Assembly: GCF_003048375.1 (NCBI RefSeq) | Contig: NZ_CP021642.1 | Coordinates: forward strand, 1,556,527 to 1,620,526 | DNA: 64,000 nucleotides | Direction: 5' to 3' | Origin: Campylobacter concisus | GTDB taxonomy: Bacteria; Campylobacterota; Campylobacteria; Campylobacterales; Campylobacteraceae | Translations under genes and position numbers: made by a program | The notes under the pieces: generated by a model | Database searches by the model: none | What the model was told of the DNA's origin: nothing | What the model saw: only the letters and a program-made list of their open reading frames with translations | In this document: positions 58,316-64,000 of the stretch, piece by piece | Layout of the letters: the number at the start of each line of letters is the position of its first letter | Numbering within the stretch: the first letter of the stretch is position 1

Positions 58316-60544
58316 CTAAATTTTTATATTTTTACAAGATAAAACGCTAGCACATAGCCCATATATCAGCACGCAAAGGCTAACACTTAGCCCAAAGACG
58401 CTAAGAGCGGCGGTCTGACTAAACGAGAGTGTGAAAAACGAGATAAAACTCGTGATAAATGCGCAAAATATCCCATAAATTCGCTCTTTTTCGCTAAGGC
58501 TCTCATTTAGCGCAAATATCATATAATCAATCCCCACAGCGCTTGCAAGGATGAGCCCAAAGACGCCAAAGATGCTTAAATTTATGCCAAAAATGGCAAA
58601 GATAAAAAGCGTTAGTAGCACGCCAAAGATGATGACGCCCATGACAAGTGCCGAGATAAGTGCACTAAAATAAACCCACAGCAGTAAAAACGCGATCACA
58701 AGCGCTGCTATTTTTAGTTTTAGAGCTAGCTCTTTTGTCTGCGTTAGGCTCTCATTTAGTGAGTCAGCAAAATTTAGACTAAAAGCGTTGTGGCGCTTTA
58801 GTACCTCATCACTTTGTGCCACTTTTACAAAGCCACTCACGTAAGCCACACTTGCATTTTCATCAAGGACAAATTTTTTAAAATCCTTCATAGATTTGAG
58901 AGCTAAAATTTCACCAACACCAAGCTCTTTTTGGCTTAAAACTTTTAAAATTTCACTTCGCACTTCATCTTTGCTAAAGCCAAATTTCTCATAAATCACA
59001 TAAATTTGCTCATCATCAAGCGCCTTTTTAAAGGCCTCTTTTAGCTGTCCCTGCTCACTTTTACTTAAAAATATATCGCTTAGTGAGCTCTCATCTTTTA
59101 TCAAATTTCTCTTTTTTAGCTCATCTAAAAGGCTCTTTTCGCCTCCTAAAATGTCGCCGCTAGATCTTGTCACTACCATCGTATTTTGGTTGTTGCCAGT
59201 TAGGCTTAAGATATAAGAAGAGTCCGCTAGCAGGCTTTTTGGCATATTTGAGTAGTCTTTTACGTTTTCGCTTTTTGATAAATTTTTAAGGTCAAAACCA
59301 AGAAAGATCGCCAGTAAAATAAGCGAAATAGCTAGAAATTTAACCCCCAAATGCCTAGCAACTAGGGCAGAAAGCTCGCAAAATTTAGTTAAGAACGCGT
59401 CAAAAACCTTTGATCTATAAAATTTCACTCCCTCAAAAACTAAAGGCATGAAAAAGTAGCTAGCTAAAAAGGCAGCTATAAGCGCAAATGCCGAAAAGAG
59501 CGCCACCTCTTTAAGCAGCCTAAGATCAGAAAAAGTAAAAGCTAGATAGCCACTAAGCGTGATAAGAAGGCCTAGCAAGAAAATTTTTAGCATATTTTTT
59601 ATGCTGCTAGCCCTGATCGCTTCGCCCTCGTTTTTGCTAAGCCAGTGCAAGACATAGTCAAACATGAGGCCAATTAGGCTCGTGCTTATTAAAATAGTAA
59701 GGATATTTAGTTCATTTAGACAGAGCAAAGTGCCTGCAAATGCCACGCTAAAGCCAAATGCAGCGATAAATATCACATAAAAAATTCGCAAATTTCTAAA
59801 GGCAAGCATCAAAAATATAGCGGTCAAACTAAGCGAGACCACGCTCATATAAAGGCTCTCGCTCTCGTTTTTTTGCTTTGAAAATGCCTGATAAAGCGCA
59901 CTTGAATGCACAAAAAGCTCGTTTTGCCCAACTTTTAGCGCATTTAGCTCGTTATAAAAATTTATTAGCCCCTCGCTCGAAACCCCTTTTTTTAGCTCGC
60001 CTTTTAGCAAGAAAAAGCTCTTTGCACCGTCTTTTACCTCAAGCATGAGATCTGCTAAATTTAAGCTTACGTTGCCGTTTTTTGCGCTAAAGCCGCTACT
60101 TAGCGAGAAAAAATCATCATTTATATTTAAAAGTCTAAAGCTAAAGCTGTTAAAAATTTCTTCTGCGCGCTTTTTGAAAAATGCGTTTTTATCGTTTTTT
60201 AAAAGCTCTAAATCAGCCCTACTTAAAAGTGCGATCTTTGAGCGGTTGATATCACTTTTTATATCATTTAAATTTACGTCGATGTTCGCCTCAAAGCTCT
60301 TAAAAAGCGAGCTTTTAAGCGCCAAGCTTTGCACGTTTTTGGCTAGCTCTTTGGAATTTACAAGTACCAAAAAATTTGACGCCATCTCATCTTGCACCTC
60401 TTTTAGCACCTTTGCCTCTTTGGCGTCTTTGAAATTTATCAGTGAAAATATATCAGTTTGGACGTTTTTTAGGCTCGCAAGCGAATACCCAAGCGAGGCT
60501 AAAAAAACAAAGATAAAAGCCAAGATCGTGGCTAGTTTTTTCAT
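58316..60544 (-). CDS. MMPL/RND-superfamily exporter
   Basis: 742 aa. Signal/TM segment, then large periplasmic loops and two TM bundles. Confidence 0.7.
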   Translation of the reverse strand: MKKLATILAFIFVFLASLGYSLASLKNVQTDIFSLINFKDAKEAKVLKEVQDEMASNFLVLVNSKELAKNVQSLALKSSLFKSFEANIDVNLNDIKSDINRSKIALLSRADLELLKNDKNAFFKKRAEEIFNSFSFRLLNINDDFFSLSSGFSAKNGNVSLNLADLMLEVKDGAKSFFLLKGELKKGVSSEGLINFYNELNALKVGQNELFVHSSALYQAFSKQKNESESLYMSVVSLSLTAIFLMLAFRNLRIFYVIFIAAFGFSVAFAGTLLCLNELNILTILISTSLIGLMFDYVLHWLSKNEGEAIRASSIKNMLKIFLLGLLITLSGYLAFTFSDLRLLKEVALFSAFALIAAFLASYFFMPLVFEGVKFYRSKVFDAFLTKFCELSALVARHLGVKFLAISLILLAIFLGFDLKNLSKSENVKDYSNMPKSLLADSSYILSLTGNNQNTMVVTRSSGDILGGEKSLLDELKKRNLIKDESSLSDIFLSKSEQGQLKEAFKKALDDEQIYVIYEKFGFSKDEVRSEILKVLSQKELGVGEILALKSMKDFKKFVLDENASVAYVSGFVKVAQSDEVLKRHNAFSLNFADSLNESLTQTKELALKLKIAALVIAFLLLWVYFSALISALVMGVIIFGVLLTLFIFAIFGINLSIFGVFGLILASAVGIDYMIFALNESLSEKERIYGIFCAFITSFISFFTLSFSQTAALSVFGLSVSLCVLIYGLCASVLSCKNIKI

Positions 60545-61059
60545 TTTATACTAAACTCATTTAGCGTTTTATCGCCGCTTACCTCGTCAAGCTCGATCTT
60601 TTTTACCGCCTTGTCGCCACTTATCTTTATGGATTTAAAAATTTGTTTAAAGAGTAAATTTTTAGGGCTTAGCTCTATGCTCCACTCTTTTAGGCTGCCG
60701 CTTGTCTTTATGTCAAATTCTTTTTTAAGCTCGTTTTCATCAAGGCTGATGATAGCAAGAAAGAGCTTTTCATCAAAATTTGCGCTCGTCTTTTCAAGCT
60801 TGCCATTTTCGTTTTTAAAAATACCATCTTTATTTATAAAAACCTTTGAAGTAACAGGCTCAAGCGTATCCCAGTAAAGACCGCCCTTTTCTAGCCTAAA
60901 CTCACCAGAGCTTTTTATACTTTTGTTAAAGCCAGCCAGACTCTTTGTCTGTGTGAAATTTCCGCTTACTCCATCTGTTTTTACTATATTTTTAAGCTCA
61001 CCCAGCTCATAGCCAAAGCAAGATATAAAAATGGCTAAAAAAAGAGCTATTTTTCTCAT
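60541..61059 (-). CDS. LolA-like outer-membrane lipoprotein carrier family protein
   Basis: Signal peptide. Beta-rich, about 170 aa. Position in the cluster next to MMPL. Confidence 0.6.
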   Translation of the reverse strand: MRKIALFLAIFISCFGYELGELKNIVKTDGVSGNFTQTKSLAGFNKSIKSSGEFRLEKGGLYWDTLEPVTSKVFINKDGIFKNENGKLEKTSANFDEKLFLAIISLDENELKKEFDIKTSGSLKEWSIELSPKNLLFKQIFKSIKISGDKAVKKIELDEVSGDKTLNEFSIK

Positions 61060-63115: not shown

Positions 63116-64000
63116 GCACTTCTAGCGCCATTACAAAATATCTCAAAGTAAATCTTCTCATCTCTTTGCGAAATTTCTATACAAAGCTCGTCATTTGGCC
63201 TTACAAATTTTAAAAATTTCAAATTCTCCACCACGCATTGATCGCCTATTTCTGCGCCAATCTCTCTTGCAAATTTAAATACAAAATCAAGCTGCACAAA
63301 GCCAGGCAAAAGCGGTAAATTTGGAAAATGCTCCATAAAAATGCCAAGTGCTGGGCTAAGCTTTGTCTTAAATTTATAAACGCCCTCTTCGCTACTTTTC
63401 TCCCAAGAAAGCTCCTCGTTTTTTTCTAAAAGAGCTTTAAAATTTGCCTTTAAAAACTTGCCCTGAGCGTTTTTGCAAAGCGAGCTAACGATCTTAAAAT
63501 ATCTAACACTATTTTTAAACTCAGGCCTTAAAAGCTCATTTAGCCTTGCTACAACGCCTTTTTTGCCGCTATCTCTAAAGAGCTTCACGCCATCTTCGCT
63601 AAGCTCCAAAAGCGCAGCTAGACGCTTAAATTTAGGATGCGTGTCGCAGTAGCAGTCTTTTAAAAGACCGCTTTCAAACATCTTATTTTCGATACTTATC
63701 AGATTGACCCTTTTGTCATTTAGCTTAACGATCCTATCGATCCTGCCTTTTAGCGTGAGCCTGCTACCATCTATCTGCGCCCAGTCGCTAGTTTGGAAAA
63801 ACTCGCACCAAGGCGAGCTCACATTTAGCGCCTCGTCCTCGCTAAGACCAGCCTTTACCTTGCTAAAAAGCAAAAGCTCATCGCCTAAATTTCTAGCAAC
63901 TATGCCAGTTTCGGTGCTACCATAAATTTCAATTATCCTAGCGCTACTTAAGCTTTCTATCTTTGCTCTTAGCTCGCTCTTTAGCGCTGAGCCTGCACAG
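63088..64000 (-). CDS. AMP-dependent ligase C-terminal region fused to a hotdog (dehydratase-like) domain; partial, runs off the window
   Basis: The reading frame stays open to the window edge. It contains EIYGSTETG (the adenylate-forming YGxTE motif) and a hotdog-like C-terminus. Confidence 0.5.
   Translation of the reverse strand, partial: CAGSALKSELRAKIESLSSARIIEIYGSTETGIVARNLGDELLLFSKVKAGLSEDEALNVSSPWCEFFQTSDWAQIDGSRLTLKGRIDRIVKLNDKRVNLISIENKMFESGLLKDCYCDTHPKFKRLAALLELSEDGVKLFRDSGKKGVVARLNELLRPEFKNSVRYFKIVSSLCKNAQGKFLKANFKALLEKNEELSWEKSSEEGVYKFKTKLSPALGIFMEHFPNLPLLPGFVQLDFVFKFAREIGAEIGDQCVVENLKFLKFVRPNDELCIEISQRDEKIYFEIFCNGARSACGRIKLGL

What the first reader, a model, noticed from the sequence alone, without database searches (positions are those of the whole stretch)
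58316..64000. Partial aryl-polyene-like lipid biosynthesis/export cluster running off the window end
Consecutive minus-strand genes encode an MMPL exporter, a LolA-like carrier, a 4HBT thioesterase, a fused GT2-glycosyltransferase/acyltransferase and an adenylate-forming domain fused to a hotdog dehydratase-like domain. The last of these is truncated by the window edge. Together these form the export/tailoring half of aryl-polyene- or flexirubin-type clusters, which make outer-membrane polyene lipids. The ketosynthase/ACP half is probably just beyond position 64000. I do not recall such a cluster in Campylobacter-type genomes.
Basis: partly seen in the sequence, partly recalled or inferred. 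Interest (0 to 1): 0.55.

Follow-up and report, generated by a model that had tools for sequence, protein, structure and literature searches.

The report
Aryl-polyene lipid gene cluster, Campylobacter concisus
The region is the tailoring and export end of a complete, intact aryl-polyene-type outer-membrane lipid gene cluster in the oral bacterium Campylobacter concisus; published genome-mining tables already list it, so it is real but ordinary, and its product has never been isolated.

Summary
Window 58316-64000 holds five tightly coupled minus-strand genes. Each matches one gene of the E. coli CFT073 aryl-polyene (ape) cluster, in the same order:
- a fused ApeH-ApeI gene, cut by the window edge
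- ApeJ (GT2 plus LpxL-like acyltransferase)
- ApeK (thioesterase)
- ApeL (LolA-like)
- ApeM (an RND lipid transporter; its model's best fold match is HpnN)

A public contig that is 100% identical to the last 12.5 kb of the window continues past position 64000. It carries the predicted missing half: a phosphopantetheinyl transferase (PPTase), ApeO, ApeP, ApeQ, ApeR, ApeC, ApeD, two ACPs, ApeG and the 5' part of ApeH.

The organism is Campylobacter concisus. The cluster is present in every C. concisus locus retrieved that reaches far enough upstream. It is under purifying selection (dN/dS about 0.1). Relatives occur in C. showae-type genomes, and relatives of its transporter in other Campylobacter and in Helicobacter.

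Its hint of novelty is not: a 2021 antiSMASH survey lists 'arylpolyene' clusters in C. concisus 13826, C. curvus, C. showae and C. ureolyticus.

The Campylobacter version does differ from the canonical one. Its gene order is cyclically permuted. It has no ApeA, ApeB or ApeN homologue, and it carries its own PPTase. Its transporter is too divergent for Pfam. The product and its starter unit are untested.

The parts
63088..64000 (-). 3' part (codons 216-518 of 518) of a fused gene: ApeH-like adenylating acyl-ACP synthetase (C-terminal subdomain) plus ApeI-like hotdog dehydratase. The 5' part lies beyond the window end.
   Evidence: Pfam ApeI-like, 30.0 bits against a cut-off of 28.5. The full 518-aa protein on identical contigs has AMP-binding plus ApeI-like domains. 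BLASTP to E. coli ApeH 28.5% (E 3.6e-25) and to ApeI 33% (E 2e-7). The HFPxxPxLPG dehydratase motif and the A8/A10-type motifs (GRxDRIVK, QGK) are conserved. The dehydratase domain hits PDB 6qsr at 3.3e-6.
61481..63091 (-). ApeJ-like bifunctional enzyme: N-terminal GT2 glycosyltransferase plus C-terminal LpxL-like acyltransferase (536 aa from the ATG at 63091).
   Evidence: Pfam GT2, 3.8e-18. NCBIfam lauroyl-acyltransferase models cover residues 268-544 at about 2e-9. 34% identity to E. coli ApeJ over its full length, E 6e-107. DDGS, DAD and HLGxxE motifs are invariant in a 7-sequence alignment. The exact protein is found on 10 public contigs.
61056..61484 (-). ApeK-like 4HBT/YbgC-type thioesterase (142 aa).
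   Evidence: Pfam 4HBT_2, 1.5e-12. NCBIfam TIGR00051, 75 bits against a cut-off of 68.7. 37% identity to E. coli ApeK, E 1e-26.
60541..61059 (-). ApeL-like LolA-fold periplasmic lipid carrier (172 aa, N-terminal signal sequence).
   Evidence: Pfam LolA, 33.5 bits against a cut-off of 23.6. NCBIfam LolA2_flexi 2.7e-15, below its cut-off. 24% identity to E. coli ApeL, E 1e-10.
58316..60544 (-). ApeM-like RND-superfamily (HpnN/MMPL-like) lipid exporter (742 aa); last gene of the cluster.
   Evidence: 25% identity to E. coli ApeM over 615 aa, E 2.5e-17. RND-like arrangement of hydrophobic segments. Profile hits to HpnN at 3.5e-24 and 5e-16. AF2 model pLDDT 91.5; best Foldseek hit HpnN 5khs, E 4.4e-17. 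No Pfam hit for the protein on its own.
58276..58303 (-). Terminator-like hairpin with a U-rich tail after ApeM, lying between convergent genes (weak evidence).
   Evidence: Sequence read. RNA fold -15.1 kcal/mol, but z = -0.7 against shuffles, so not statistically distinctive.

Best explanation
The region is the 3' tailoring, anchoring and export part of a complete aryl-polyene-lipid (ape/APEL-type) biosynthetic operon on the chromosome of Campylobacter concisus. The operon is about 13.7 kb and has 17 genes.

The mechanism below is taken from the characterised E. coli and Xenorhabdus systems and is inferred here by homology.

1. The ApeH domain adenylates an aromatic acid starter, which is 4-hydroxybenzoate in the characterised systems, and loads it onto the ApeE carrier protein.
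2. The ApeO/ApeC ketosynthase and chain-length-factor pair, the ApeQ reductase and the ApeI and ApeP dehydratases extend it with malonyl units into a conjugated polyene. ApeR is a second ketosynthase.
3. ApeD puts a second, polyene-like fatty acyl chain, carried on ApeF, onto a lysophospholipid.
4. The GT2 domain of ApeJ adds a hexosamine to the phosphate. Its LpxL-like domain then transfers the carrier-bound aryl polyene onto that sugar.
5. ApeK acts as a proofreading or release thioesterase.
6. ApeM, an HpnN-like proton-driven RND lipid transporter, takes the finished lipid out of the inner membrane. The LolA-like ApeL carries it across the periplasm to the outer membrane. There such lipids quench reactive oxygen species and favour biofilm formation.

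Shown here: the homology, domain content, catalytic motifs, gene order, completeness, conservation and purifying selection of the genes, and the fold of ApeM.

Inferred: every chemical step, the identity of the starter and the sugar, the outer-membrane location and the antioxidant role. With no ApeB methyltransferase in the cluster, an unmethylated head group is expected.
For: - Each gene's best match among the E. coli CFT073 Ape proteins (single direction) is its counterpart: ApeO 36%, P 27%, Q 52%, R 52%, C 29%, D 34%, E 57%, F 50%, G 36%, H 28.5% plus I 33% (fused), J 34%, K 37%, L 24%, M 25%.
- The cluster continues beyond the window on a contig identical over 12,520 bp.
- Catalytic residues are in place. 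Both ketosynthases keep Cys and His, and the chain-length factor lacks the Cys. ApeJ keeps DDGS, DAD and HLGxxE. ApeI keeps HFPxxPxLPG.
- ApeM has the HpnN/MmpL fold.
- The four junctions in the window are ATGA overlaps.
- dN/dS is 0.08-0.15 for all five genes against four diverged C. concisus lineages.
- The same architecture is found in every Campylobacter locus retrieved that is long enough.
- antiSMASH-based surveys already call it 'arylpolyene' in C. concisus 13826.
- Pathway roles come from PMC8253772 and bioRxiv 10.1101/2020.12.19.423268.
- A Helicobacter sp. relative of this clade carries a flavin-dependent Trp-halogenase-type gene at the head of the cluster. Such enzymes usually act on electron-rich aromatic rings, so this is an indirect hint that the clade's product has an aryl head.
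Against: - No product has been isolated from any Campylobacter or any oral bacterium (PMC8549736).
- No homologue of ApeN (DUF3261, LolB-like), ApeA or ApeB is detected.
- ApeH is only 28.5% identical to the E. coli enzyme, so its substrate cannot be read from sequence.
- By general knowledge, not tested here, Campylobacter makes menaquinone rather than ubiquinone and is not expected to have the UbiC route that supplies 4-hydroxybenzoate in E. coli.
- No yellow pigmentation of C. concisus is known to me.
- The cluster may be silent under laboratory conditions, as it is in Xenorhabdus.
Confidence: 0.85

Rival explanations
1. The same ape-type machinery makes a non-canonical polyene lipid in Campylobacter. 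It would use a different starter unit (not UbiC-derived 4-hydroxybenzoate, or not aromatic at all) and an export route that does not need an ApeN/LolB-like acceptor.
For: ApeH is only 28.5% identical to the E. coli enzyme. ApeA, ApeB and ApeN are absent, while two lineage-specific small secreted or lipoproteins sit at the equivalent positions. ApeM and ApeL are very divergent, 22-25% identical to all non-Campylobacterota copies. The expected absence of the ubiquinone/UbiC pathway in Campylobacter is general knowledge and was not tested here.
Against: All core enzymes and both carrier proteins are conserved with intact motifs. ApeB is also missing next to most gammaproteobacterial clusters sampled, within the flank held. 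A halogenase in a Helicobacter relative points to an aromatic head group. 4-Hydroxybenzoate or a related acid could come from another pathway or from the host niche.
Confidence: 0.12
2. It is a flexirubin-type cluster, in which the aryl polyene is esterified to a dialkylresorcinol as in Bacteroidota.
For: The LolA-like protein's best NCBIfam match is the flexirubin LolA2 model, 2.7e-15.
Against: That match scores 56 bits against a cut-off of 125. No DarA/DarB-type or tyrosine ammonia-lyase gene is among the called genes within 10 kb either side. Gene-for-gene correspondence is with the E. coli ape cluster, including ApeD and ApeJ, the lipid-anchoring enzymes.
Confidence: 0.01
3. It is a lipid A or lipooligosaccharide modification locus. 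The GT2/LpxL-like fusion would decorate lipid A, and the RND and LolA proteins would move it.
For: The C-terminal half of the 536-aa protein resembles late lipid A acyltransferases at about 1e-9. Johnston et al. once considered lipid A as a possible anchor.
Against: The scores are 36-38 bits against equivalog cut-offs of 248-370. The gene is the full-length homologue of ApeJ, E 6e-107. It sits in one operon with a type II PKS-like set. No lpx or waa genes flank it. In Xenorhabdus, ApeJ builds a GalNAc-phosphoglycerol lipid, not lipid A.
Confidence: 0.01
4. It is a decaying or non-functional remnant of a horizontally acquired cluster.
For: Several proteins are so divergent that databases call them hypothetical. 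The adjacent pectate-lyase-like gene is disrupted in this strain.
Against: All 17 ORFs are intact with overlapping stop and start codons. dN/dS is about 0.1. Catalytic motifs are kept. GC content equals that of the rest of the window, 0.39-0.40 against 0.40. The same architecture is kept across the C. concisus and C. showae-type loci retrieved.
Confidence: 0.01

Closest known systems
E. coli CFT073 APE_Ec cluster (apeA-R, c1186-c1204; Cimermancic 2014, cited from memory; Johnston 2021, PMC8253772)
   Same: Homologues of ApeC, D, E, F, G, H, I, J, K, L, M, O, P, Q and R are all present. The window part keeps the identical order H-I-J-K-L-M. Catalytic motifs are conserved.
   Different: The gene order is cyclically permuted: [125 aa]-O-P-Q-R-[138 aa]-C-D-E-F-G-HI-J-K-L-M instead of A-B-C...R. 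ApeH and ApeI are fused. There is no ApeA, no ApeB methyltransferase and no ApeN (DUF3261). The PPTase is in the cluster, whereas E. coli relies on the orphan AcpT. Identities are only 24-57%.
Xenorhabdus doucetiae ape cluster and its APEL lipids (Grammbitter et al., bioRxiv 10.1101/2020.12.19.423268)
   Same: It meets that paper's stated core-gene criterion for an ape cluster: apeO/R, apeE/F, apeC, apeI/P, apeQ and apeM. ApeD and ApeJ, which build the glycerol-phosphate-GalNAc anchor, are both present. The ApeI-like domain matches PDB 6qsr, a 119-aa chain that I take from memory to be Xenorhabdus ApeI; the entry is titled only 'AMP-dependent synthetase and ligase'.
   Different: The product is unknown here. 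With no methyltransferase, an unmethylated head group would be expected. The sugar and the acyl chains are untested.
ape clusters of Methylophaga, Pelagibius, Propionivibrio and Paraburkholderia (loci L057, L062, L073, L080)
   Same: They share the ApeH-ApeI fusion. Methylophaga and Paraburkholderia also carry homologues of the 138-aa secreted protein, and Methylophaga carries a PPTase.
   Different: They keep the canonical order C...M-N-O-P-Q-R. All but the Paraburkholderia locus L080 keep ApeN. ApeJ identity to the window is only about 35%.
HpnN, the hopanoid RND transporter of Burkholderia (PDB 5khn, 5khs, 6wu0)
   Same: It is the best fold and profile match of the 742-aa protein: a 12-TM RND lipid shuttle with two periplasmic domains that moves a hydrophobic lipid towards the outer membrane.
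   Different: 13-14% sequence identity. The genomic context and presumed cargo differ. The window protein is about 110 residues shorter.
Flexirubin (Bacteroidota) and xanthomonadin (Xanthomonas) clusters
   Same: These are the other two branches of the APE family, with related type II PKS-like cores and LolA/RND export parts (from memory).
   Different: There are no dialkylresorcinol genes, no tyrosine ammonia-lyase, no XanB2-type chorismatase and, in C. concisus, no halogenase. Two ACPs are present, whereas xanthomonadin clusters have one (PMC8253772).

Membership tests
Aryl polyene (ape) biosynthetic gene cluster family | Ketosynthase ApeO with its chain-length factor ApeC, which has no active-site Cys, plus a second ketosynthase ApeR | tested here: met
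   On L003/L001, the continuation of the window: ApeO 36%, ApeR 52%, ApeC 29% identity. Cys and His are present in both ketosynthases and Cys is absent in the chain-length factor. These genes lie outside the window itself.
Aryl polyene (ape) biosynthetic gene cluster family | Two dedicated acyl carrier proteins (ApeE, ApeF) | tested here: met
   57% and 50% identity to E. coli ApeE and ApeF; Pfam PP-binding.
Aryl polyene (ape) biosynthetic gene cluster family | Ketoreductase ApeQ and the two hotdog dehydratases ApeI and ApeP | tested here: met
   ApeQ 52%. ApeP-like Pfam PF22817. ApeI-like PF22818 above its cut-off, with the conserved HFPxxPxLPG motif and a hit to PDB 6qsr.
Aryl polyene (ape) biosynthetic gene cluster family | ApeH adenylating enzyme that loads 4-hydroxybenzoate directly onto the ACP | tested here: inconclusive
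   The homologue is present, 28.5% identical at E 3.6e-25, with AMP-binding and A8/A10-type motifs. Substrate specificity cannot be read from the sequence.
Aryl polyene (ape) biosynthetic gene cluster family | Lipid-anchoring enzymes ApeD (LPLAT) and ApeJ (GT2 plus acyltransferase), and the thioesterase ApeK | tested here: met
   ApeD 34%. ApeJ 34% at E 6e-107 with invariant DDGS, DAD and HLGxxE. ApeK 37%.
Aryl polyene (ape) biosynthetic gene cluster family | Export set: RND transporter ApeM, LolA-like ApeL and membrane protein ApeG | tested here: met
   ApeM E 2.5e-17 and HpnN fold. ApeL is above the Pfam LolA cut-off. ApeG 36% at E 7e-24.
Aryl polyene (ape) biosynthetic gene cluster family | LolB-like ApeN (DUF3261) | tested here: not met
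   No BLASTP hit in any Campylobacter locus. The 125-aa lipoprotein at the equivalent position matches the ApeN profile only over 18 columns within the N-terminal signal region (hhalign probability 31%). This feature is conserved in most gammaproteobacterial clusters but is not part of the Grammbitter core-gene criterion.
Aryl polyene (ape) biosynthetic gene cluster family | Head-group methyltransferase ApeB (a variable accessory gene) | tested here: not met
   Absent from all Campylobacter loci. It is also absent next to most gammaproteobacterial clusters sampled, within the flank held.
Aryl polyene (ape) biosynthetic gene cluster family | Product is a cell-bound yellow aryl-polyene pigment or lipid | not testable with these tools
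   This needs extraction, UV-Vis and LC-MS. No oral APE has been characterised (PMC8549736).
Flexirubin-type cluster | Dialkylresorcinol genes (DarA/DarB), a tyrosine ammonia-lyase, and the flexirubin LolA2 equivalog | tested here: not met
   No such Pfam families appear among the called genes within 10 kb either side. LolA2_flexi scores 56 bits against a cut-off of 125.
Lipid A late acyltransferase (LpxL/LpxM) locus | Score above the equivalog cut-off, and an lpx/waa genomic context | tested here: not met
   36-38 bits against cut-offs of 248-370. The neighbours are PKS-like genes, not lpx or waa genes.
RND superfamily, HpnN/MMPL-like lipid transporters (for the 742-aa protein) | 12-TM fold with two periplasmic domains, and a sequence or profile link to solved members | tested here: met
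   Hydropathy pattern. Profile hits to HpnN at 3.5e-24 and 5e-16. Model pLDDT 91.5 with top Foldseek hits HpnN, MmpL4/5, NPC1 and Patched. The protein alone does not reach any Pfam MMPL score.

The most novel reading that the evidence does not exclude
The Campylobacterota branch of the ape family makes an outer-membrane polyene lipid that departs from the E. coli/Xenorhabdus APEL. This branch has a permuted gene order, no ApeA, ApeB or ApeN, its own PPTase and two lineage-specific small secreted proteins. It lives in hosts that are not expected to make UbiC-derived 4-hydroxybenzoate. The departure could be a different starter or head group, and export without a LolB-like acceptor. In a catalase-negative, inflammation-associated oral and gut organism, such a lipid could be a specific oxidative-stress and host-interaction factor.
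Probability: 0.15. Interest if true: 0.45.

Novelty: already known. Interest (0 to 1): 0.2.

Why it matters
Aryl-polyene lipids protect Gram-negative bacteria against reactive oxygen species and promote biofilm formation (PMC8253772; PMC13532178). Campylobacter concisus is an oral bacterium linked to gut inflammation. No aryl polyene from any human oral bacterium has been isolated or tested (PMC8549736).

The practical value here is modest. This work gives a clean gene-by-gene map of the Campylobacter version. It shows that several proteins annotated as 'hypothetical' are the ApeM, ApeL and ApeG export parts. It also flags the lineage-specific differences that an experimentalist would want to know before cloning or deleting the cluster. 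It does not change what is known about this cluster family.

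Tried and rejected
- **Start codon of the 536-aa gene.** An exact look-up of the 544-aa ORF from its TTG start found nothing. The true start is the ATG at 63091, which forms an ATGA overlap with the upstream stop, and that sequence was found.
- **The 742-aa protein on its own.** It gave no Pfam hit and no PDB sequence hit. Only profiles and a model resolved it.
- **First AlphaFold run.** A 7-row, near-identical alignment failed (pLDDT 37). 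A 50-row alignment of 50%-cluster representatives worked.
- **Homologue searches.** Both homologous-protein searches were swamped by 94-97% identical C. concisus sequences and added little diversity.
- **Small proteins as diverged ApeN/ApeA.** I tested whether the 125-aa lipoprotein is a diverged ApeN and the 138-aa secreted protein a diverged ApeA. Profile-profile comparison aligned only short N-terminal stretches (18 and 24 columns; probabilities 31% and 4.5%), so neither idea is supported.
- **The 227-aa protein upstream of the PPTase.** It has no family or structure match and occurs only in C. concisus loci. I do not count it as part of the cluster.
- **Hairpin after ApeM.** It folds no better than shuffled sequence (z = -0.7).
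- **Substrate of ApeH.** PDB matches are generic adenylating enzymes, so nothing can be inferred.
- **Literature.** Cimermancic et al. 2014 is not held in the library, so statements about it are from memory. The supplement of the 2025 C. concisus antiSMASH paper is not held.

Full report
**What is in the window**

Positions 58316-64000 carry five minus-strand ORFs with no gaps between them. Read 5' to 3' on the minus strand, they are as follows.

- 63088-64000: the last 303 codons of a gene that runs off the window.
- 61481-63091: 536 aa.
- 61056-61484: 142 aa.
- 60541-61059: 172 aa.
- 58316-60544: 742 aa.

All four junctions are ATGA start/stop overlaps, which suggests translational coupling within one operon. 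After the last gene comes a hairpin with a U-rich tail, lying between convergent genes. It folds no better than shuffled sequence. GC content is 0.393, against 0.401 for the rest of the window.

**Domain calls**

- The truncated gene ends in a domain that passes Pfam's ApeI-like dehydratase cut-off. It is preceded by the C-terminal subdomain of an adenylate-forming enzyme.
- The 536-aa protein has an N-terminal GT2 domain (3.8e-18). Its C-terminal half matches late lipid A-type acyltransferase models at about 1e-9, far below their equivalog cut-offs.
- The 142-aa protein is a 4HBT/YbgC thioesterase, above the NCBIfam cut-off.
- The 172-aa protein passes the Pfam LolA cut-off.
- The 742-aa protein has no Pfam hit at all and only a weak HAE3 match.

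**Organism and continuation past 64000**

The 536-aa protein occurs, residue for residue, on ten public contigs. A genome scan finds it at 86-99% identity in more than twenty Campylobacter concisus lineages. It is 54-59% identical in C. showae-type oral Campylobacter genomes. The next-best matches, at 33-36%, are in Shewanella and other Proteobacteria.

One contig, L003, is 100.000% identical to the window over 12,520 bp. Window position equals 72772 minus L003 position. Upstream of window position 64000, L003 carries these genes in order:

- a 227-aa protein of unknown function
- a PPTase
- a 125-aa lipoprotein
- a ketosynthase
- an ApeP-like dehydratase
- a ketoreductase
- a second ketosynthase
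- a 138-aa secreted protein
- a chain-length factor
- an LPLAT acyltransferase
- two ACPs
- a 181-aa membrane protein
- the 5' part of the AMP-binding/ApeI fusion (518 aa in all)

From the PPTase to the transporter the cluster spans 13,658 bp.

**Identity with the characterised ape cluster**

I fetched the E. coli CFT073 ape cluster and compared all proteins (using the L001 copy, which is 96% identical in DNA to the window).

| C. concisus protein | E. coli counterpart | Identity |
|---|---|---|
| Ketosynthase 1 | ApeO | 36% |
| Dehydratase | ApeP | 27% |
| Ketoreductase | ApeQ | 52% |
| Ketosynthase 2 | ApeR | 52% |
| Chain-length factor | ApeC | 29% |
| LPLAT acyltransferase | ApeD | 34% |
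| ACP 1 | ApeE | 57% |
| ACP 2 | ApeF | 50% |
| 181-aa membrane protein | ApeG | 36% |
| 518-aa fusion | ApeH and ApeI | 28.5% and 33% |
| 536-aa GT2/acyltransferase | ApeJ | 34%, E 6e-107, full length |
| 142-aa thioesterase | ApeK | 37% |
| 172-aa LolA-like | ApeL | 24%, E 1e-10 |
| 742-aa transporter | ApeM | 25% over 615 aa, E 2.5e-17 |

The cluster thus meets the core-gene criterion used by Grammbitter et al.: apeO/R, apeE/F, apeC, apeI/P, apeQ and apeM.

Catalytic residues are in place. Both ketosynthases keep Cys and His, and the chain-length factor has no Cys. ApeJ keeps DDGS, DAD and HLGxxE. ApeI keeps HFPxxPxLPG, and the adenylation domain keeps its A8/A10-type motifs. The ApeI-like domain also matches PDB 6qsr, which I take from memory to be the solved Xenorhabdus ApeI.

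**The transporter**

Hydropathy gives the pattern TM1, a large loop, a cluster of hydrophobic segments, TM7, a second large loop and a second cluster, as in E. coli ApeM.

A nine-sequence ApeM profile hits the hopanoid transporter HpnN at 3.5e-24, and also MmpL4 and MmpL5. Seven of the nine members reach a Pfam MMPL hit at E ≤ 0.01, but the two Campylobacter members do not.

An exhaustive search of 1.84 billion cluster representatives finds 2,788 relatives, 94 of them at E ≤ 1e-30. The nearest come from other Campylobacter species and from Helicobacter, and all are annotated as hypothetical. A 50-row alignment of these relatives gives a profile that hits HpnN at 5e-16. It also gives an AlphaFold model with pLDDT 91.5 and pTM 0.86. 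The best Foldseek matches of that model are HpnN (E 4e-17, TM 0.64), then MmpL4/5, NPC1 and Patched. These are lipid-moving RND proteins.

The protein is a divergent member that Pfam does not see. Some recent NCBI records already name it 'MMPL family transporter'.

**How it most likely works**

Roles are taken from the E. coli genetics (PMC8253772) and from the Xenorhabdus lipid structure (bioRxiv 10.1101/2020.12.19.423268).

1. ApeH loads an aromatic acid starter onto ApeE.
2. ApeO/C, ApeQ and ApeI/P build the conjugated polyene.
3. ApeD acylates a lysophospholipid with a second polyene-like chain.
4. ApeJ adds a hexosamine and then esterifies the aryl polyene to it.
5. ApeK proofreads or releases.
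6. ApeM and ApeL move the lipid to the outer membrane.

All of this is inferred here from homology; nothing chemical was tested. The cluster is probably functional. dN/dS is 0.08-0.15 for all five window genes against four diverged C. concisus lineages. All ORFs are intact.

**What differs from the canonical cluster**

- Every Campylobacter locus has the order [125 aa]-O-P-Q-R-[138 aa]-C-D-E-F-G-HI-J-K-L-M. Nearly every other taxon sampled has C-D-E-F-G-H-I-J-K-L-M-N-O-P-Q-R. The Campylobacter order is a cyclic permutation.
- ApeA, ApeB (the methyltransferase) and ApeN (DUF3261) have no homologue.
- The two small secreted proteins sit where ApeN and ApeA would be. Profile comparison shows no relationship beyond a short N-terminal stretch.
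- The ApeH-ApeI fusion is shared with Methylophaga, Pelagibius, Propionivibrio and Paraburkholderia. The 138-aa protein is shared with Methylophaga and Paraburkholderia.
- C. concisus has an in-cluster AcpT-like PPTase.
- A Helicobacter sp. relative keeps the same core order and adds a flavin-dependent halogenase. That is an indirect hint that the clade's product has an aromatic head group.
- The starter unit in Campylobacter remains open. By general knowledge, these bacteria make menaquinone, not ubiquinone. I could not test whether they have a route to 4-hydroxybenzoate.

**Rivals**

- A flexirubin-type cluster is excluded. There are no dialkylresorcinol or ammonia-lyase genes, and the flexirubin LolA2 model scores 56 bits against a cut-off of 125.
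- A lipid A/LOS locus is excluded by the scores and the genomic context.
- A decaying remnant is contradicted by the signs of selection and the intact motifs.

**Novelty**

- PMC8549736 (2021) states that aryl polyene clusters from Campylobacter are enriched at oral sites. Its Table S1 lists antiSMASH 'arylpolyene' clusters in C. concisus 13826 and ATCC 51561, C. curvus 525.92 and DSM 6644, C. showae CC57C and RM3277, and C. ureolyticus DSM 20703.
- PMC13455363 (2026) reports an aryl polyene gene-cluster family shared by Treponema, Neisseria, Eikenella and Campylobacter.
- No paper found describes the Campylobacter gene content, product or function.

**Verdict**

This is an already-known kind of cluster, already listed for this species, so interest is low. 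What remains of interest is the uncharacterised product of a divergent Campylobacterota branch.

Noticed in passing
window 57023-58268 (+): The pectate-lyase-like gene convergent with the cluster is split into two ORFs, of 254 and 143 aa, which cover Pfam PF00544 positions 9-100 and 141-211. It is a single ORF (424 or 453 codons, stop to stop) in five other C. concisus loci. In most other loci it is disrupted at the same spot, a short indel-prone stretch that includes a G run of 4-7 bases.
   Followed up: partly
window 6464-13542 (+): This is a low-GC island (0.31-0.34 against about 0.40). It holds a 1211-aa ORF whose C-terminal 300 aa match phage endolysins, some of them annotated as glycoside hydrolases (PDB 4ok7, E 1.3e-10). 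Six ORFs of 121-263 aa follow. None of the seven has a Pfam or PADLOC hit. It looks like a peptidoglycan-hydrolase effector with possible immunity genes.
   Followed up: partly
L003 135-818 (equivalent to about 8 kb beyond the window end): A 227-aa ORF overlaps the start of the in-cluster PPTase gene by 20 bases. It occurs only in C. concisus loci and has no Pfam or NCBIfam match, and only one marginal PDB hit (E 0.046). Whether it belongs to the cluster is unknown.
   Followed up: partly
L088 8104-9318 (Helicobacter sp. MAG, GCA_022511145.1): A relative of the cluster in Helicobacter keeps the Campylobacter-type core order. It places the LolA, ApeM and PPTase genes on the opposite strand and adds a flavin-dependent Trp-halogenase-type gene, which suggests a halogenated aryl head group there.
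   Followed up: no
L046 (C. concisus RMIT-O23 chromosome, CP147773.1): In this assembly many of the cluster's genes are broken into several ORFs. All other C. concisus loci are intact, so this looks like assembly frameshift errors rather than real decay.
   Followed up: no
window 1-64000: The whole 64-kb window has no tRNA gene and no Rfam family match at gathering score.
   Followed up: yes
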